The notes: generated from the letters alone by a model not told the origin. Numbered from the stretch's first letter, positions 1,467 through 47,489 are shown. The stretch: 64,000 nt of DNA from Candidatus Woesearchaeota archaeon (GCA_038850615.1 JAWCLR010000003.1:1506-65505); one strand, 5' to 3'. Made by a program: numbers and translations.

Positions 1467-2297
1467 TTATGTCTGCCTCTGAAACCGCTTCAGCACGAAA
1501 GGAATCATGTCAACCAAGTCGCTCGCAAGATAACCAAAGCCCTTTTTCTTGTAAAGAATGTCCGCCGCCTTGCCGTTTACGAAAGCAGCGGCGCAGGCAG
1601 CCCTGAAAGCGTCATTGCCCTGCGCCATCAAGCCAGCAACAATGCCTGCAAGAACATCGCCCGTGCCTCCATGCGTCATTCCGGCATTGCCTGTTGAATT
1701 CACTGCAATTTTGTCCATTGAAATGATTTCTGTTTTTGGATGCCCTTTCTTGACGAGCACGTTTGACCCCAGATGCTTTTGCAAATCCCCGGCCGCAATA
1801 TTGCTGTTCTCAAGCAAAGCCTCAAACTCCTTCGCGTGAGGCAAGAACACAGCACCCGACACATCCTGCAACCTTACCACGCGCAATGCCGCTGCGTCAA
1901 GCACAAGAGGCCTGTGGACTCGAGTGGCAACCTTCCAGATGAACTCTGCGACTCCGGGTGTGAATGAAATGCCGTTCCCGATTTCAACAACATCCGCCTT
2001 TTCTGCAAGCGCAAGGATTTCAGGAATGTTTTTCGGCGTGAAGTTGTTGCACTTTATTTTCTTAGTTATAAGGTCAGGGGCGATGCTGTTAATTGTCCAG
2101 GCAACCTTTTCAGGGGCTGCGACGGTGACAAGGTCTGCGCCGCTTCGCAAAACAGCCATTGCGGCCATTCCGACAAGCGCAGGCGCGCCGATGTAGTCCT
2201 CGCTTCCGCCAACCACAAGCACCGTGCCATTGTCTCCCTTATGCGAGTCTTTCCTTCTCGGCTTCAGAACAATGTCGCGACTAGTGAGACTCCTCAT
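1467..2297 (-). CDS. nnrD: ADP/ATP-dependent NAD(P)HX dehydratase (YjeF C-terminal, carbohydrate-kinase-like)
   Basis: HKGDNGTVLVVGGSEDYIGAPALVGMAAMAVLRSGADLVTV ... THGGTGDVLAGIVAGLMAQG are typical family motifs. Confidence 0.8.
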   Translation of the reverse strand: MRSLTSRDIVLKPRRKDSHKGDNGTVLVVGGSEDYIGAPALVGMAAMAVLRSGADLVTVAAPEKVAWTINSIAPDLITKKIKCNNFTPKNIPEILALAEKADVVEIGNGISFTPGVAEFIWKVATRVHRPLVLDAAALRVVRLQDVSGAVFLPHAKEFEALLENSNIAAGDLQKHLGSNVLVKKGHPKTEIISMDKIAVNSTGNAGMTHGGTGDVLAGIVAGLMAQGNDAFRAACAAAFVNGKAADILYKKKGFGYLASDLVDMIPFVLKRFQRQT

Positions 2298-3313
2298 GGG
2301 TTTAGCGGCTTAACCAAATTTTGAGGTGACTTTTTCAGAAACGACTCAATGTTGCTGATTGTTGTGTCAAGAATTCTCTCCAACGCTTCCTTGGAATAGA
2401 AAGCACAATGTGGCGTAACGTAAACATTGGGCTGCTCAAAAAGCACGTGCTCTGCAAGAAGGGTTTGGATGTCGCGAGCTTTCTTAAAGCCCTTCGAGAG
2501 AAACTCCAATTCCTCCTTTATTGCACATTCCTCCTCAAGAACATCAAGCCCCACTCCGGAGAATATCTTTCTTGATATGCCCTCCAGGATTGCTCCTGTT
2601 TCAATAACAGCGCCGCGCGATGTGTTTATCAGTATTGCACCCTTCTTGACCTTGTTCAGGTTCTTTTTGTTGAGCATATGGGTTGTTTCCTTCGTAAGAG
2701 GCACATGGAATGTTATCACATCGGACTCTGAAAGCAATTTCTCAAAAGGCACGTACTTGAACCCGCATTCCTTTGCGAGCTCTTCATTTGGATAAACGTC
2801 GTATGCAATAACTTTCATGCCGAAGCCGCAACTGCCGATGTGAGCGACATTCCTGCCAATTCTTCCTGTGCCGACAACGCCAAGGGTTTTGCCTTTCAGG
2901 TCAAAGCCACACAACCCCTCAATCTCAAAGTGGGCTTTGCGCGTGCGCTCCACAGCGTCAACAATCTTCCGAGAAATGGCAAGAATCAGCCCGAATGTGT
3001 GTTCTGCAACGGTGATATCACCGTACGCTGGCACATTGCTGACAGCAATCTTCCTTTTTGCGCATTCCTTGAGGTCGATATGGTCAAAGCCGGTGCTCCT
3101 GGTCGTCACCAGCTTCACCTTTGGCAGAAGGTTAAGCACCTTTTTGTCTATTTTGGAATGGATGAATACCGCGAGAATGTCAGCGCCTTTTGCCTTTGCT
3201 GCATTCTCGGGCTTGAGGGCGTCATCAATAAAAACAAGGTTGTGCTTACTCAGCCGTTTCCTGATGTATCTCTTCTGCCAAGGCTCCAGCTCAAAAAATG
3301 CTATCGTTGCCAC
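2294..3313 (-). CDS. D-isomer-specific 2-hydroxyacid dehydrogenase (D-lactate / phosphoglycerate dehydrogenase family)
   Basis: NAD-binding GVVGTGRIGRNVAHI, the catalytic-domain layout, and a 4-nt overlap with the downstream gene. Confidence 0.75.
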   Translation of the reverse strand: MATIAFFELEPWQKRYIRKRLSKHNLVFIDDALKPENAAKAKGADILAVFIHSKIDKKVLNLLPKVKLVTTRSTGFDHIDLKECAKRKIAVSNVPAYGDITVAEHTFGLILAISRKIVDAVERTRKAHFEIEGLCGFDLKGKTLGVVGTGRIGRNVAHIGSCGFGMKVIAYDVYPNEELAKECGFKYVPFEKLLSESDVITFHVPLTKETTHMLNKKNLNKVKKGAILINTSRGAVIETGAILEGISRKIFSGVGLDVLEEECAIKEELEFLSKGFKKARDIQTLLAEHVLFEQPNVYVTPHCAFYSKEALERILDTTISNIESFLKKSPQNLVKPLNP

Positions 3314-40345: not shown

Positions 40346-40457
40346 GGCCCTTTAGCTCAGTCCGGTAGAGCAACGGTCTTATATGACCGCTGACGGAACA
40401 AGAAGTCAATGGCTCTAAGAGCACCGTCGGTCGCCGGTTCAAATCCGGCAGGGGCCA
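40346..40457 (+). tRNA. tRNA-Ile(TAT) with a 38-nt intron at 37/38
   Basis: Acceptor GGCCCTT/AGGGGCC, D-arm GCTCAGTCCGGTAGAGC, anticodon stem ACGGT...ACCGT, loop CTTATA|intron|C, T-arm GCCGGTTCAAATCCGGC. The spliced length is 74 nt. Confidence 0.7.
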
Positions 40458-40513
40458 CTTTTATTTTTTTGTGCGATACCTTTTTAAAACAGCCAAGTTC
40501 TTATTGGCATATT

Positions 40514-40607
40514 GCCCCTGTCGTCTAGTCCGGCCAAGGATAAGGGCCTTTCGTGCGGCAAAACGCAAGGAAAGCCTTTGACACGGGTTCAAATCCCGTC
40601 GGGGGCA
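40514..40607 (+). tRNA. tRNA-Glu(TTC) with a 19-nt intron at 37/38
   Basis: The body is near-identical to tRNA-Glu(CTC). Anticodon stem AGGGC...GCCTT, loop CTTTCG|intron|A. Confidence 0.85.
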
Positions 40608-40734
40608 TATGATTGTCCGCGAAGAATTGCTTGGCTACTACACCAAAAGCAAAGCAGAAATCCAAAAAGCAATTGCAAGATACCGCGAACTGAAGGCATT
40701 ATTTGAATAGTATAATGACAAGGAACTTCTTGAA

Positions 40735-41629: not shown

Positions 41630-41916
41630 ACCTACTAAATCCTAATTAGCATCAACGCCAAGCGCCGGTAAATCATTCCGGCAAGCTTTCTGTCCTCGGG
41701 AAAACTGAGGATGCCTACCAAAAACACGGTAGGAATGAGTGTCTCAGCTGAGCCTGAGGCATGATGGAGGGCAGCAATAGAACCCAAAAGCCAAATTCCA
41801 TTTTAGTCTGATGCGACCACAAATGTGGGAAGGGTTAACGACGAGGCTCCATTGATTCGTCAATGGTCATATCGTCTTGACATAACTTTCCTCAGGAGAA
41901 AACTCCGACATCACAG

Positions 41917-43382
<1,466 letters not shown>

Positions 43383-43471
43383 AATTTACTTTAAAGGACG
43401 GAGTCCATTGCTGCGAGCAACTTCGAAATTCCATCCGCAGACTCCGAGTGGAGCGAAGCGGAACGAGGTTG

Positions 43472-43496
43472 CCTGCGGATGGATCACCTCCTAATT
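43472..43496 (+). repeat. Perfect 25-nt duplicate of the 16S 3' terminus, including the anti-Shine-Dalgarno sequence
   Basis: CCTGCGGATGGATCACCTCCTAATT occurs at 43362-43386 and at 43472-43496. The antisense TCCATCCGCAG at 43430-43440 lies between them. Confidence 0.85.
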
Positions 43497-43606
43497 CGTT
43501 TACTCGTGTATTCGTACACGCGTTAACTCGGCTGAAGGTTTTGCTGCCCTCCTTTTTTGTTTTCACGGATCCGCTGAGTCGGGTCCTTGAAGAGTGCAAG
43601 ACTTCC

Positions 43607-43699
43607 GGGCCCGTAGCTCAACGGTAGAGCACCTGCCTTGCAGGAAACAAATGTTTCCAGGAGCGCGGGAGGCTTCGGGTTCAAATCCCGACGGGTCCA
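43607..43699 (+). tRNA. tRNA-Ala(TGC) with a 21-nt intron, in the 16S-23S spacer
   Basis: GGGCCCG/CGGGTCC acceptor with G3:U70, anticodon stem CCTGC...GCGGG, loop CTTGCA|intron|C. Confidence 0.85.
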
Positions 43700-43924
43700 T
43701 CCATCCGAGTATCACATTCATCATTTCATTCGATGAACGCAAATCGCGATTCTAACTAATCGCGGTTGAAGGGCAATAGGCTGTAGGAGCGCATAATGCA
43801 AGACGTAAGACGCACGACGCATAAAAAAAGCGGCCGGCGTCAAGCGCAAGGCGTCCTGCGCGCCCAATAACCACACCTACTACATGCTAATGACGGCCGT
43901 GCAAAGATTGAGATCATATCTGGT

Positions 43925-46835
43925 CCTACACTACCCTAACAGGTGGAAGACTTGGTTCGAGACGCCGATGAAGGACGCGGCTAACGGCGAAATGCCCCGG
44001 CGACGTGTATGCAACGGTTGAACCGGGGATATCCGAATGGGACTTCCTCTTGAGCACGAAAGTGCGGGGAACGCGGGGAATTGAAACGTCTTAGTACCCG
44101 CAGGAAAAGAAATCAATCGAGATGCGCTGAGTAAGAGCGACTGAAAAGCGCATAGGGCAAACCGAACGAGGGAATGAAAGTTCTCTCGAATGTGGTGTTT
44201 GGACCCGTGCCAATACCTCGCTGGGAAACGCAAAGTCGCCTGGAACGGCGCGCGACACAGGGTGACAGCCCCGTAGCGGCACCTCAGCAGGTTACGAGCA
44301 TGGAGTTCCAGAGTACTGTTCCTCGGAAATGGAGCAGGAATACGGGGGGCATCAACCTCCAACCCTAAATACGTCTCGAGTCCGATAGCATACAAGTACC
44401 GTGAGGGAACGTTGAAAAGAACCCCTGACCGGGAGTTCAAAGATCCTGAAACCTGTTAGGTATGGATCGCTAGGGCACCACGGTGTTCTAGCGTTCGTTT
44501 AGAATAACGAGCCGGGGAGTGCATCTCAGTGGCAAGGCTAACCTTTATCAGGGAAGCCGAAGCGAAAGCAACAAGCCCGCAGGCAACGAGGGGCGGGGTG
44601 CTAATCCGCCTGGAGTCACTGGGATTCGACCCGAAACCGCTCGATCTTATCCTGAGTAAGGTGAAGTGCGGGTAAAACCGTGCGGAGGCCTGAAGAGGTT
44701 CTATGAGCAAGTGTTCTTCTAACTTGGGATAAGGGGTGAAAAGCCAATCGAGAGCGGTGATAGCTGGTTCCTATCGAAGTAGGCGTCAGTCTAACCTGGG
44801 ACGAGCTGACAGGTGCTGTAGAGCGACGGATTGGGGGTTAAGGCATCGAAAGGTGTCGACCCTCTGTCCAACTCCGAAAGTGCCTGTAGCGTAGACTCCC
44901 GGAGACGGGGTGTCGGCGTAAGGTTGACATCCGAGAGGGGAACAACCCTGACGCTGGTTAAGGTCCCAAAAGACGCATTAAGTGTGAACGGGCATAAGGG
45001 TATCTGCGTCCAGAGACAGCGGGGAGGTTGGCTTAGAAGCAGCCATCCTTTAAAAAGTGCGTAACAGCTTACCCGTCAAGGATGCGGGTCCCTAAAATGG
45101 ACGGGGCTAAATGCGTTACCGATACCAGCGACGCCCCAAAAGGGCGGAGTAGGTAGGCGTACTGCGTGGGCAGAAGCTTCTCCGTAAGGAGGGGTGGACC
45201 GCGTAGTAATGAAAATCCCGGCAGTAGTAGGATCGTAGCAGCGTGAGAATCGCTGCCACCGAAAGGGCAAGGGTTCCTTGGCACTGTCGATCAGCCAAGG
45301 GTCAGTTGGTCCTAACAGAGCTCCCAACAGGAGCCGATGTGGAAAGGGAAACCGGTTAATATTCCGGTACTGTCTGTGTATGCGTGGCAACACAAGCCTC
45401 GTGTCAGACGCTTTTGGCTAGATGGGCGCAGACCGTCGTCTGCGTTAACCCGGATACGCCGCGGGAGTATCATCATGATGAGAACGCGGGGAAACCGGGG
45501 AACAGCATTCCTTTGGAGTGTCCTGTCAATGCCTGGAGCCCATGAAAATGGCACAGGGAAAAATCACAGGCATCCGTACCCAGAACCAGCACTGGTGCCC
45601 CTAGGTGAGAAGCCTAAGGTGTGAAGGACGAACCTAGACAAGGGAACTCGGCAAATTGGTCCCGTAACTTCGGTTTAAGGGATTCCTGCTCCTGTGCGCA
45701 CATGCGTGGTGGGAGCAGGGCGCAGTGACTCGGGGGTCCCGACTGTTTAACAAAAACACAACTGGTTGCAAAGCCGTAAGGCCGTGTACAACCGGTGACG
45801 TCTGCCCAGTGTCGGTATCCGAATCTCGTTTTCAAGCGGGCTAAGGACCGATTAACGGCGGGAGTAACTATAACTCTCTTAAGGTAGCGTAATGCCTTGT
45901 CGTTTGATTGGCGACGTGCATGAAGGGCGTAACGAGGTCCCCACTGTCCCTGTCTGGGAGCCTCCGAATAAATCCTTCTGGTGCAGAGACCAGAGATCTC
46001 CAGTGGGAAGCGAAGACCCCGTGAAACTTTACTGTAGCTTGTCGTTGCGGCGTGAGCTGCGTTGTATAGGGTATGTGGGAGCTGCTTGAGCCCAGTGCCG
46101 TCAGGCGCTGGGTGAGGCGACGATGTAACACCACACTCCGCGACTTGCGTTGCTTACCTTCCGAAAGGAAGGGACACCGGCTGGCGGACAGTTCGGCTGG
46201 GGTGGCACGCAGTTGAAAGGATATCAATTGCGACCAAAGGTCTGCTCAACCCGGTCAGAAATCGGGTGTAGAGTTTAAGGGCAAAAGCAGGCCTGATGGG
46301 ATACTTAATAAGATTGTATCCCAAGGCGAAAGCCTGGCCTAGCGAACCTCAATGTCCTTCTTGATGAGGGCTTGGGATGACCGAAAAGTTACTCCGGGGG
46401 TAACAGAGTCGTCGCGCCTGAGAGTTCACATCGACGGCGCGGCTTGCTACATCGACGTCGGCTCTTCCTATCCTGGGCGTGCAGAAGCGTCCAAGGGTGC
46501 GGGAGTTCACCGTTTAAAAGGGATCGTTAGCTGGGTTCACAACGCTGTGAGGCAGTTGGTTTGATATCTACTGGAGATGCGAGATGTCTGAGGGGAAGGA
46601 AGCTCTAGTACGAGAGGAACGAGCTTTCGGCGCCACTAGTGTACCGGTTATCCGATAGGGTATCACGCCGGGCAGCTACGCGCTGAGGGATAAGTTCTGA
46701 AAGCATCTAAGAATGAAACCCTCCTCGAAAAGAGACATCATAGTGCACGGATACAACATCCGTTTGATGGAAGCGGGGTGTACGCGCGAAGGTAACGACG
46801 CGCTCAGCCTGCGCTCCCCAACGCACATACTTGGA
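43925..46835 (+). rRNA. 23S rRNA (archaeal); ends approximate (about +/-15 nt)
   Basis: 5' ...AGGTGGAAGACTTGGTTCGAGACGCCGATGAAGGACGCGG; internal GGATAACAGAG-like and ...CTGAAAGCATCTAAG... blocks. The flanks ATCTGGTCC (43913-43921) and GGATTAGAT (46833-46841) can pair as a processing stem. Confidence 0.85.
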
Positions 46836-47045
46836 TTAGATGCGATTTCAGTCTTTGCATGGCCATCATTTTTCCTTTTTTTCTTAATTCATTGACTATG
46901 CAGATCCGGAAGTTTCGCAATTCTTCCGCAAAACAATCTATTTTCAGGAATTCTTCCGGCTTAAATGCAAATGTGTTTGGTCAAACCGCAATCGTCACAA
47001 GATTTTCACCAAAATTCACTTTAAGACTGTTGTCTTTTTTTTGCA

Positions 47046-47489
47046 ATGATGCTTTGTGGCAAGTTTGAGTACAAGAAACTTGAGATATATGAGCTTGCTC
47101 ATCAGTTCGTACTGCACATTTATGATTTGTGCGCAAATTTCCCCCAGGAGGAATCAAATAACATCGCATCGCAAATCAAGCGCGCGGCAGTGAGTCTTCC
47201 GCTTAACATAGCTGAGGCAACAGGCTGTATGAGCTTCCGCACATGCCTTAATTTCTTGAGTTTCAGTTTCCGCTCATGCAAGGAGCTTGAGGCTGCTTTG
47301 CGATTATGCAGGGACCTGAAATACTTAAATGACCCGCAGTACCTTGACACTAGCGAACGCCTTGATATGCTGATGAGGAAGCTTTTCAAGTACATGGAAT
47401 ACATCAGCGCTCAGGCTGACAAGCGCAGCGGTTATCGCCGGCAACAGGCGATGAATACGGAATTCATAAAGAAAAGTTCAGGGACTTAA
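47046..47489 (+). CDS. Four-helix-bundle protein (23S rRNA intervening-sequence protein family)
   Basis: ...LEIYELAHQFVLHIYDLCANFPQEESNNIASQIKRAAVSLPLNIAEATG...SCKELEAALRLCRDLKYL... fits the family pattern. Confidence 0.7.
   Translation: MMLCGKFEYKKLEIYELAHQFVLHIYDLCANFPQEESNNIASQIKRAAVSLPLNIAEATGCMSFRTCLNFLSFSFRSCKELEAALRLCRDLKYLNDPQYLDTSERLDMLMRKLFKYMEYISAQADKRSGYRRQQAMNTEFIKKSSGT

What the first reader, a model, noticed from the sequence alone, without database searches (positions are those of the whole stretch)
43362..43496. The 16S rRNA 3' terminus, including the anti-Shine-Dalgarno sequence, is duplicated 110 nt downstream
CCTGCGGATGGATCACCTCCTAATT is present at 43362-43386 (the true 16S end) and again, perfectly, at 43472-43496. 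Similarity continues into ...TTTACT. Between them, TCCATCCGCAG (43430-43440) is antisense to both copies. The 3' trailer sequence that can pair with the 5' leader is GGACGGAGTCC at about 43397-43407, matching ACTCCG...GTCC at about 41902-41920. It lies before the second copy, so copy 2 should be outside the mature 16S. Possible meanings: an insertion with a 25-nt target duplication, an intron-like segment whose excision restores the same end, or a cis element that sequesters or mimics the anti-SD during maturation.
Basis: seen in the sequence. Interest (0 to 1): 0.65.

Follow-up and report, generated by a model that had tools for sequence, protein, structure and literature searches.

The report
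Second 16S 3'-end copy in trailer
Small DPANN archaea, including this hot-spring one, carry a structured ~110-base piece just after the 16S rRNA gene that ends in an exact second copy of the rRNA's 3' tail and its cutting site; it is real and conserved, apparently undescribed, and probably takes part in finishing the small ribosomal subunit RNA.

Summary
CCTGCGGATGGATCACCTCCTAATT occurs exactly twice, at 43362-43386 (the end of the archaeal 16S) and at 43472-43496.

It is not an assembly artefact. Independent hot-spring DNA runs hold the same sequence, and a related strain carries both copies on a single contig.

It is not strain-specific. I found 15 distinct DPANN-type rRNA operons (labelled Woese-, Nano- and Micrarchaeota) with a second copy of the 16S tail 95-114 nt downstream. 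No convincing case came from other archaea.

- The repeat (20-49 nt) always spans the mature 3' end.
- Copy 2 always follows a conserved hairpin that shows compensatory changes.
- Copy 2 always carries the lineage's own trailer start, so the two copies evolve in concert.
- Both copies lie inside the long leader-trailer processing helix (41766-41792 / 43530-43552).

No bulge-helix-bulge motif fits an intron one period long. The variable repeat length and the deep conservation argue against a transposon footprint.

Best reading: an old tandem duplication of helix 45, tail and trailer, kept as a mimic of the 16S 3' processing (Nob1 "D") site within the pre-16S RNA. The function is inferred. No RNA data covered the spacer. 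In two metagenomes the number of units is polymorphic.

The parts
41766..41792 (+). Leader strand of the outer (long) 16S processing helix
   Evidence: A perfect 12-bp inverted repeat, GGAGGGCAGCAA / TTGCTGCCCTCC (I3). RNAcofold extends it to 20 pairs with 43530-43552. The leader strand is identical in L039, where the trailer strand has one G:C to G.U change.
41916..43382 (+). 16S rRNA gene (archaeal SSU)
   Evidence: Rfam RF01959, 1404 bits, model positions 1-1478.
43349..43370 (+). Authentic helix 45 (43349-57 pairs with 43362-70; GGAA loop)
   Evidence: Pair list. The helix stays formed in every truncated and full-length fold.
43362..43386 (+). Copy 1: helix 45 3' strand, the 3' tail GGAUCACCUCCU with the anti-SD, and the first 4 nt of trailer. 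The expected mature end (D site) lies between 43382 and 43383.
43383..43492 (+). D1-D2 segment (110 nt): a highly structured spacer that ends in the second tail
   Evidence: MFE -42.9 kcal/mol, z -4.07, 0 of 200 shuffles as stable. The equivalent segments of all 15 lineages give z -2.0 to -5.9.
43397..43407 (+). Hairpin P1 (GGAC-GGA-GUCC). Its 5' side, with A43395-G43396, forms an SD-like 'anti-tail' AGGACGGAG.
   Evidence: Compensatory changes read from the aligned sequences: GGAA/UUCC in L039, GGAU/AUCC in L010, GGAC/GUCU in L017, GGAC/GUCC in L027 and L023. It can also pair with tail 1 or tail 2 in MFE folds.
43404..43414 (+). Proximal remnant of a processing-stem strand (TCCATTGCTGC), complementary to leader 41771-41781
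   Evidence: I6 (11 nt, 91%). L021 has the same logic with a perfect 13-bp proximal helix.
43430..43440 (+). 5' strand of a pseudo-helix 45 (P3); pairs with 43473-43483 of copy 2
   Evidence: I4 (11 bp perfect). RNAalifold on 7 lineages gives 9 pairs, 2 of them with compensatory double changes.
43441..43471 (+). Apical insertion of P3, taking the place of the GGAA loop
   Evidence: In relatives this part is a stem that differs in sequence in each lineage yet is always paired.
43472..43496 (+). Copy 2: an exact repeat of the helix 45 3' strand, the tail and 4 nt of trailer. The second D-like junction lies between 43492 and 43493.
   Evidence: The same layout occurs in 14 other DPANN-type loci.
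43505..43520 (+). Hairpin in the distal trailer (CGUGUA-UUCG-UACACG)
   Evidence: Present in L017 and deleted in L039.
43530..43552 (+). Trailer strand of the outer processing helix, downstream of copy 2
   Evidence: The main leader-trailer helix also lies downstream of copy 2 in L008, L019, L021, L023, L024 and L027.
43607..43699 (+). Spacer tRNA-Ala(UGC) with a 21-nt intron (43643-43663) in a canonical bulge-helix-bulge
   Evidence: Rfam tRNA, 59.3 bits. The intron and BHB were read from the sequence. This shows that EndA-type splicing substrates exist in this organism.
43919..46840 (+). 23S rRNA gene; no comparable duplication at its 3' end

Best explanation
The second copy belongs to a conserved module in the 3' trailer of the pre-16S rRNA of DPANN archaea. 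The module is a structured spacer whose last hairpin (here a pseudo-helix 45, 43430-43483) is followed by an exact copy of the single-stranded 16S tail GGAUCACCUCCU and of the first bases of the trailer. It therefore reproduces the whole context of the 16S 3' processing site, the archaeal/eukaryotic 'site D' cut by Nob1 and bound by Dim2/Pno1.

Origin (inferred): a tandem duplication of helix 45, tail, trailer start and processing-stem strand. The two copies are kept alike by unequal recombination or slippage.

Place (shown): inside the long leader-trailer helix, so the primary pre-16S carries both copies. By homology the mature 16S ends at copy 1.

Function (inferred, not shown): the module acts in cis during 30S maturation as a second D-type site. 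It is either cut by, or holds, the same 3'-end machinery. That would separate the pre-16S from the downstream tRNA and 23S, leaving a ~110-nt 3' extension that is removed in the final cut at 43382/43383.
For: Real DNA:
- X1 and X2 contigs hold 43362-43496 exactly, at the depth of the flanks.
- A related strain in X3 holds 16S end + copy + about 81 nt of divergent spacer + copy on one contig at depth 30.5.

Conserved:
- There are 15 distinct lineages. Nine of the 28 genome-contig hits and 6 more distinct metagenome loci show the layout. All the genome-contig hits with a genuine 16S-linked duplication have DPANN-type rRNA; the rest are N-bridged scaffold joins or non-rRNA repeats.

Anatomy points to the D site:
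- The repeat always spans the mature end.
- Its left edge is either the first base of the helix 45 3' strand (9 lineages) or exactly the first G of GGAUCACCUCCU (6 lineages).
- A hairpin always precedes tail 2.

Selection on structure:
- Type 2 hairpins: 24 pairs, 8 with compensatory double changes in 4 sequences.
- Pseudo-helix 45: 9 pairs, 2 compensatory.
- Apical stems are all different in sequence but all paired.
- z -2.0 to -5.9 in all 15 segments.

Position: the main processing helix lies downstream of copy 2 in all 7 loci that have a leader.

Concerted evolution and its engine:
- Trailer starts differ between close relatives (AATT, TATTCGTTT, ATATTATTT) but are the same in both copies of each genome.
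- The X1 contig joins 43467-43496 directly to 43387-43496, so words for a third copy exist.

Biochemistry from the literature: P. horikoshii Nob1 cuts short RNAs, and hairpin-loop constructs that carry only the D-site sequence, at the correct bond (PMC3326319).
Against: - No RNA evidence was obtained. No metatranscriptome reached held the spacer, so neither the mature end nor a cut at copy 2 has been seen.
- The right edge of the repeat varies from 1 to 28 nt. That looks more like conversion tracts than a fixed recognition site.
- In several MFE folds tail 2 is paired with the SD-like anti-tail rather than free.
- A second D site is not obviously needed, because one cut at copy 1 would already free the 16S.
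- The presence of Nob1 or Dim2 in this genome was not checked.
- The scan only saw gaps of 80-110 nt and exact 12-mers, so the fraction of DPANN that have or lack the module is unknown.
Confidence: 0.45

Rival explanations
1. A neutral, self-perpetuating tandem duplication. A slip duplicated the 16S end plus trailer. Copy 1 is held constant by ribosome function, and unequal recombination or template switching keeps copying it onto copy 2. The module has no role of its own.
For: - Variable right edge of the repeat, 1-28 nt.
- Concerted change of unconstrained trailer bases.
- Polymorphic unit number in X1 and X2.
- A bacterial-type ITS with a similar ~110-nt tandem duplication (L044) shows that such slips do happen.
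Against: - Direct repeats 100 nt apart are prone to deletion, yet the two-copy state is found in lineages only about 72-80% identical in 16S.
- The left edge sits at the same structural landmark in many lineages.
- The hairpins next to copy 2 show many compensatory changes.
- All convincing cases are DPANN. None came from the other archaea or the bacteria among 185,579 species genomes.
Confidence: 0.25
2. A folding switch. Antisense elements in the spacer (the SD-like anti-tail at 43395-43407 and TCCATCCGCAG at 43430-40) first hold the real 3' tail or helix 45 strand. Copy 2, made 110 nt later, then takes them over and releases the real end. It would be a co-transcriptional timer, or an antidote for the released spacer.
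For: - Tail 1 pairs with the anti-tail in truncated transcripts of the window, L017, L039, L010, L027, L023 and L019. In the window's full-length fold the anti-tail moves to tail 2.
- The antisense strand covaries with lineage-specific bases of the copies.
- This model explains why copy 2 must equal copy 1.
Against: - Helix 45 stays formed in every truncated fold, so the antisense strand never wins against it.
- An SD-like anti-tail is absent from L038, L037, L008, L024, L026 and L032 (sequences).
- The covariation of P1 favours a local hairpin over pairing with an invariant tail.
- The switch seen in the window's MFE is not reproduced in L017.
Confidence: 0.12
3. The mature 16S is longer than annotated. 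It keeps the spacer as a 3' expansion and ends at copy 2, giving two anti-SD sequences, or some molecules do.
For: Both copies lie inside the processing helix. The spacer is as structured as an expansion segment.
Against: - The SSU model ends at copy 1 in every locus.
- Spacer sequence diverges quickly even between genomes with 99% identical 16S 3' regions, unlike rRNA proper.
- RNA contigs of DPANN-like 16S in four metatranscriptomes stop at the canonical end. This is weak evidence, because they come from other organisms.
Confidence: 0.06
4. An intron-like segment. A 110-nt piece is cut out at equivalent points of the two copies and the ends are rejoined, restoring a single 16S end.
For: Excision of any 110-nt register restores the same sequence. 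The organism splices BHB introns (tRNA-Ala intron).
Against: - No BHB with cuts one period apart was found in any of 14 loci.
- Identical sequences at both cuts cannot pair with each other. The only palindrome, GATC, lacks flanking helices (read from the sequence).
- At 85-110 nt the piece is too short for a group I or II intron, and Rfam finds nothing there.
Confidence: 0.04
5. An assembly artefact, or the footprint (target-site duplication) of a recent mobile-element insertion.
For: Many database hits to the same pattern are artefacts: 11 scaffolds carry N-bridged duplicated 16S ends.
Against: - Unique, structured spacer sequence.
- The same sequence in independent runs at flank depth.
- L026, L034 and L048 are identical across three data sets.
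- Homologous spacers occur in distant lineages.
- Repeat length is not fixed.
- The spacer is single-copy.
Confidence: 0.03

Closest known systems
Site D (Nob1 cleavage site) at the 3' end of archaeal 16S / eukaryotic 18S rRNA, with Dim2/Pno1 bound to the tail
   Same: Copy 2 reproduces the authentic site base for base on both sides of the scissile bond: 21 nt upstream and 4 nt downstream here, and up to 28 nt downstream in L037. It also has the same hairpin-then-single-strand layout. Nob1 is known to cut short RNAs that carry only this sequence (PMC3326319).
   Different: It lies in the trailer, not at the end of the rRNA body. Its hairpin lacks the GGAA loop of helix 45. Cleavage or binding there has not been observed.
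Two-step 3' maturation of eukaryotic 18S (cut in ITS1 at A2 or site 2 first, final cut at D), and ITS1 elements that pair with the 18S 3' end (own knowledge: Lamanna & Karbstein 2011)
   Same: A spacer element just downstream of the SSU 3' end. It would leave a short 3'-extended precursor and contains sequences complementary to the SSU end.
   Different: In eukaryotes the upstream-spacer cut site is not a copy of site D and is made by other enzymes. Here the spacer holds a literal repeat of the rRNA end.
Archaeal rRNA processing stems with bulge-helix-bulge motifs (EndA cleavage, circular pre-16S; PMC7038931, PMC10351888)
   Same: A long leader-trailer helix encloses the 16S (41766-41792 / 43530-43552).
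   Different: A canonical BHB can be drawn only in a competing register in the window, and it is not kept in L039. The helix encloses an extra module that the model archaea do not have, as far as I know.
Archaeal BHB introns in rRNA genes (e.g. Thermoproteales 16S introns, PMC4496867)
   Same: Extra sequence associated with a 16S gene in a thermophilic archaeon. The host splices BHB introns.
   Different: No BHB at the boundaries. It lies at or after the mature end rather than inside the rRNA body. It is flanked by direct repeats, which BHB introns are not.
Short tandem segmental duplications under concerted evolution
   Same: Direct repeats with a fixed period, identity of unconstrained flanks within a genome, and unit-number polymorphism in natural populations.
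   Different: Retained across phylum-level distances, with conserved RNA structure next to the repeat.

Membership tests
Archaeal BHB (EndA-spliced) intron | Bulge-helix-bulge: two 3-nt bulges on opposite strands, 4 bp apart, holding the two splice sites | tested here: not met
   A geometric search was calibrated on the window's own tRNA-Ala intron. No BHB with cuts one repeat period apart was found in any of 14 loci, and the window had 0 hits.
Archaeal BHB (EndA-spliced) intron | Excision restores a conserved mature RNA sequence | tested here: inconclusive
   This is trivially true for any 110-nt register because of the repeat, so it cannot discriminate.
Archaeal BHB (EndA-spliced) intron | Spliced or circular intron RNA is observed | not testable with these tools
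   No RNA run held the spacer.
Transposable element insertion with target-site duplication | Target-site duplication of a fixed length set by the transposase | tested here: not met
   Repeat length is 20-49 nt across lineages.
Transposable element insertion with target-site duplication | Terminal inverted repeats, and further copies elsewhere in the genome | tested here: not met
   There are no inverted repeats at the spacer termini. Two 30-32-mers of the spacer occur once each in the 64 kb window, even with 3 mismatches allowed. Only the window could be searched.
Transposable element insertion with target-site duplication | Patchy, recent distribution among relatives | tested here: not met
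   Homologous modules occur in lineages 72-99% identical in the 16S 3' region.
Nob1 'D' processing site | The sequence around the scissile bond matches the authentic 16S 3' end and trailer start | tested here: met
   25 of 25 identical in the window, covering 21 nt before and 4 nt after the bond. Every one of the 15 lineages repeats at least GGAUCACCUCCU plus 1-28 nt of its own trailer.
Nob1 'D' processing site | A single-stranded site directly 3' of a hairpin (helix 45 context) | tested here: inconclusive
   A conserved hairpin precedes tail 2 in all lineages. However, in 6-7 MFE folds tail 2 pairs with an SD-like anti-tail.
Nob1 'D' processing site | Cleavage by Nob1, or binding by Dim2/Pno1 | not testable with these tools
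   This needs enzyme assays or RNA end mapping. The presence of Nob1 and Dim2 genes in this genome was not checked.
Archaeal pre-rRNA processing stem | Extended complementarity between 5' leader and 3' trailer that encloses the rRNA | tested here: met
   41766-41792 / 43530-43552: 12 bp perfect, 20 pairs in the cofold. Conserved in L039 with one G:C to G.U change. Analogous helices occur in 6 other loci.
Archaeal pre-rRNA processing stem | A canonical BHB within the stem | tested here: inconclusive
   The window allows ggaggg-CAGC-aat-AGAACC / GGTTTT-gctg-CCC-tccttt. This competes with the perfect 12-bp register, and its inner helix is lost in L039. The 23S stem (43895-43907 / 46852-46864) has no bulges.
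Tandem duplication under concerted evolution | Variable unit number and homogenised flanks | tested here: met
   The X1 contig joins 43467-43496 to 43387-43496, and its 140 nt equals the period plus k-1. The trailer starts are identical within genomes and differ between them.

The most novel reading that the evidence does not exclude
DPANN archaea finish their 16S rRNA in two cuts by the same D-site machinery: first at the copied site, then at the true end. This would be functionally parallel to the eukaryotic ITS1-then-D order. It would release a stable, highly structured ~110-nt RNA ending in a free anti-Shine-Dalgarno tail, which could itself act in trans, for example by holding Dim2/Nob1 or by competing for SD sequences.
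Probability: 0.18. Interest if true: 0.8.

Novelty: new variant of a known kind. Interest (0 to 1): 0.62.

Why it matters
How archaea make the ends of their rRNAs is still only partly known, and for DPANN archaea almost nothing has been measured.

A conserved literal copy of the 16S 3' end and its cutting site inside the precursor gives a concrete, testable handle. It predicts specific RNA ends (43382 and 43492), a specific ~110-nt by-product, and a specific substrate for Nob1/Dim2.

If it is functional, it shows a lineage-specific way to stage small-subunit maturation in organisms with very reduced genomes. It may also explain how rRNA operons whose processing stems lack clear BHB motifs are taken apart.

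Practically, it warns annotators and primer or probe designers that these genomes hold two anti-SD-bearing 16S ends. It also warns that the unit number can vary within a population.

Tried and rejected
1. RNA evidence. I searched public RNA runs with the window trailer, L034 and L032. I then laid a hot-spring, a groundwater, a wetland, a riverine, a sediment and four salt-marsh metatranscriptomes on the window, L032 and L038. Only conserved 16S words matched and none covered a spacer, so there is no RNA evidence either way.

2. BHB intron. The geometric search was negative.

3. A third RNA partner that would force both junctions to stay identical. RNAduplex of tail plus trailer start against 250 nt of leader was no better than shuffles in 7 loci.

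4. It is at chance level in the window (z -0.43). Only L021 approaches significance (z -1.9 for the stretch after copy 1 and -3.1 for the stretch after copy 2).

5. A canonical BHB in the outer stem. The window candidate is not conserved in L039.

6. Known RNA families. Rfam with permissive thresholds on 43340-43610 finds only the SSU end.

7. Literature. Four full-text searches found no description of a duplicated 16S 3' end in archaeal spacers. The library is incomplete, so this is not proof of novelty.

8. A comparable duplication at the 23S 3' end. None was found.

Only gaps of 80-110 nt were therefore surveyed.

Full report
**1. The observation**

The window holds an archaeal rRNA operon:
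- 16S at 41916-43382
- a tRNA at 43607-43699
- 23S at 43919-46840

The 25-mer CCTGCGGATGGATCACCTCCTAATT occurs at 43362-43386 and again at 43472-43496. Both copies have no mismatch, there is no third copy, and none is expected by chance.

Copy 1 consists of the 3' strand of helix 45, the single-stranded tail with the anti-Shine-Dalgarno sequence, and four bases of trailer. The similarity resumes after a 4-nt indel: AATT|TACT against AATT|CGTT|TACT. TCCATCCGCAG at 43430-43440 is a perfect antisense of both copies.

**2. It is real DNA**

- Logan contigs of two hot-spring DNA runs (X1, X2) hold 43362-43496 exactly. Their depth is 7-8, the same as the 16S and the downstream spacer, which also shows that these are DNA libraries.
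- A related strain in a third run (X3) carries TAGGGGAA + copy + CGTTT + about 81 nt of different spacer + copy + CGTTT... on one 239-nt contig at depth 30.5.
- In X1 and X2 the spacer sits on a 140-nt contig. That length equals the 110-nt period plus k-1.
- One search shows that the X1 contig reads 43467-43496 followed directly by 43387-43496. So 31-mers joining spacer end, copy and spacer start exist.
- That is the signature of molecules with three copies and two spacers. Judged by depth (7.96 against 5.8-7.0 in the flanks) they are a minority.
- No words for a one-copy deletion were present in X1.

**3. It is not strain-specific**

I scanned one genome per species (185,579 species) for GGATCACCTCCT, a gap of 80-110 nt, then GGATCACCTCCT. 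The scan gave 28 loci:
- 11 are scaffold joins with an N between duplicated contig ends.
- 8 are unrelated coding or tandem repeats.
- 9 are rRNA operons with a unique spacer between the copies.

All nine have DPANN-type rRNA. Six are labelled Woesearchaeota, Nanoarchaeota or Micrarchaeota. Three are labelled Methanosarcinales MAGs, but their 16S 3' regions are about 79-87% identical to those of the other operons found here (L008 87% to the Nanoarchaeota-labelled L023) and they share their 16S-end signature GTCACAAGG.

The metagenome scan added six more distinct loci. Together with the window that makes 15 lineages. L039 and L017 are 99.2% and 97.5% identical to the window in the last 480 nt of 16S. 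Most others are near 80% and the Micrarchaeota locus is near 72%.

**4. Common anatomy**

- The period is 95-114 nt and the exact repeat is 20-49 nt.
- The repeat always spans the mature 3' end.
- The left edge has only two positions.
  - In nine lineages ("type 1", including the window) it is the first base of the helix 45 3' strand.
  - In six lineages it is exactly the first G of GGAUCACCUCCU. In four of these ("type 2") the helix 45 strand is also present, but two hairpins (~50 nt) separate it from the tail.
- The right edge varies from 1 to 28 nt into the trailer.
- A hairpin always comes immediately before the second tail.
  - In type 1 the hairpin is a pseudo-helix 45. Its 5' strand (43430-40 here) follows lineage-specific bases of the copy: 9 pairs, 2 with compensatory double changes. 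Its apical stem differs in sequence in every lineage yet always pairs.
  - In type 2 the two hairpins show 8 compensatory pairs out of 24 in only four sequences.
- Every D1-D2 segment folds far better than shuffles, with z from -2.0 to -5.9.
- A small hairpin about 12 nt after the true end also covaries. Here it is GGAC-GGA-GUCC at 43397-43407, against GGAA/UUCC in L039 and GGAU/AUCC in L010.

These are marks of selection on RNA structure, not of decaying junk.

**5. Where the module lies in the precursor**

The strong leader-trailer helix is 41766-41792 / 43530-43552: 12 bp perfect and 20 pairs in the cofold. That is downstream of copy 2. The same holds in all six other loci whose leader is available. 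In L039 the helix is kept with one G:C to G.U change.

So both copies lie within the stem-enclosed pre-16S.

A canonical bulge-helix-bulge can be drawn in the window's stem. It competes with the perfect register and is not kept in L039. I therefore do not claim an EndA site there. The 23S stem (43895-43907 / 46852-46864) also has no bulges. The spacer tRNA-Ala has a textbook BHB intron (43643-43663), so the splicing endonuclease pathway itself is in use.

**6. Origin and maintenance**

A stretch after copy 1 (43404-14) can pair with the same leader strand as the distal stem strand (I6). In L021 a perfect 13-bp proximal helix and a 28-bp distal helix coexist. In L037 the similarity between the two units runs for about 50 nt. 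This fits a tandem duplication of helix 45, tail, trailer and stem strand.

Since then the copies have evolved in concert. The trailer start is AATT in the window, TATTCGTTT in L017, ATATTATTT in L039 and AATTCGTTT in the X3 strain. In each genome it is the same after both copies. The unit-number polymorphism seen in X1 and X2 points to unequal recombination or slippage as the homogenising process. No complementary third partner was found in the leader that would otherwise explain the identity.

**7. What it does**

This part is inference.

The feature shared by all three architectures is hairpin, then GGAUCACCUCCU, then the junction, then the lineage's own trailer start. That is the context of the 16S 3' processing site. 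Archaeal Nob1 cuts short RNAs, and hairpin-loop constructs that carry only this sequence, at the right bond (PMC3326319). The tail is also the element reported to be bound by archaeal Dim2 (Jia et al. 2010, cited from my own knowledge and seen only as a reference).

I therefore favour a second D-type site used in cis during 30S maturation. A plausible use is an early cut or a holding site that leaves a ~110-nt extension for the final cut at 43382/43383. My confidence is about 0.45 for the whole statement. It is about 0.9 for "real, conserved, inside the pre-16S" and about 0.4 for the function.

Rivals:
- A neutral duplication kept alive by conversion (0.25).
- A strand-exchange folding switch (0.12). 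It is weakened because helix 45 always wins in truncated folds and the anti-tail is missing in six lineages.
- A 3'-extended mature 16S (0.06).
- An intron-like excision (0.04). No BHB with cuts one period apart was found.
- An artefact or transposon footprint (0.03).

**8. Limits**

- No RNA data could be found for any spacer.
- The collection scans were limited to gaps of 80-110 nt and exact 12-mers, so I cannot say how many DPANN lack the module.
- The Nob1, Dim2 and EndA gene content of this genome was not examined.
- Shine-Dalgarno use by this organism is only modestly supported: 51% of 63 ORF starts against 27% of controls at -6 kcal/mol.
- I found no prior description in the searchable literature, but that library is incomplete.

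**9. Verdict**

The feature is real and conserved, and apparently undescribed, in the pre-rRNA of DPANN archaea. It is best seen as a new variant of pre-rRNA spacer processing elements. Its origin is clear, its anatomy is suggestive, and its function is untested.

Noticed in passing
window 47046-47489 (+): The first gene after the 23S rRNA encodes a 147-aa protein of the '23S rRNA-intervening sequence protein' family (PF05635, E 3.7e-27). Here it lies outside the rRNA rather than in an intervening sequence.
   Followed up: partly
window 43607-43699; also 40346-40457 and 40513-40608: The spacer tRNA is tRNA-Ala(UGC) with a 21-nt canonical BHB intron at 43643-43663. ARAGORN mis-called it as Ser(gga). 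Two further tRNAs upstream are 94-112 nt long and probably also hold introns. One of them was not found by ARAGORN, and the other was given no amino acid.
   Followed up: partly
L027 about 1960-2375 (- strand): This Woesearchaeota 16S has an insertion of about 420 nt after ...CACACACCG (near E. coli position 1390). Because of it, cmscan ended the SSU match about 500 nt before the true 3' end.
   Followed up: no
L026 4318-4593 (- strand): A group I intron (Rfam RF00028, 53 bits) lies inside the 23S rRNA gene of a Nanoarchaeia MAG. The 23S genes of L008 and L010 are also about 600 nt longer than the model.
   Followed up: no
L008, L010, L024: These three MAGs are labelled 'uncultured Methanosarcinales archaeon'. 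Their rRNA operons have 16S 3' regions about 79-87% identical to those of the other operons found here (L008 87% to the Nanoarchaeota-labelled L023), and they share their end signature GTCACAAGG. The rRNA contigs are probably mis-binned.
   Followed up: partly
L001, L005, L007, L009, L011, L012, L014, L015, L020, L022, L025: Eleven public genome scaffolds, mostly bacteria plus Haloferax gibbonsii, show a 'duplicated' 16S 3' end in which an N joins two overlapping contig ends. These are scaffolding artefacts that could be mistaken for the feature studied here.
   Followed up: yes
L044 2263-2372 (- strand): A bacterial-type 16S end (GTCGTAACAAGG...) is followed by a tandem duplication of about 110 nt that includes GGCTGGATCACCTCCTTTAAGGAA and a diverged copy of the ITS start. 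It has no N and is not palindromic. It may be a genuine independent case in a bacterium.
   Followed up: no
window 43895-43907 / 46852-46864: The helix flanking the 23S rRNA is 13 continuous base pairs (one G.U) with no bulges. No canonical BHB was found for the 23S stems of the window or of the other DPANN loci. These operons may therefore not use the usual EndA/BHB route for rRNA excision.
   Followed up: partly
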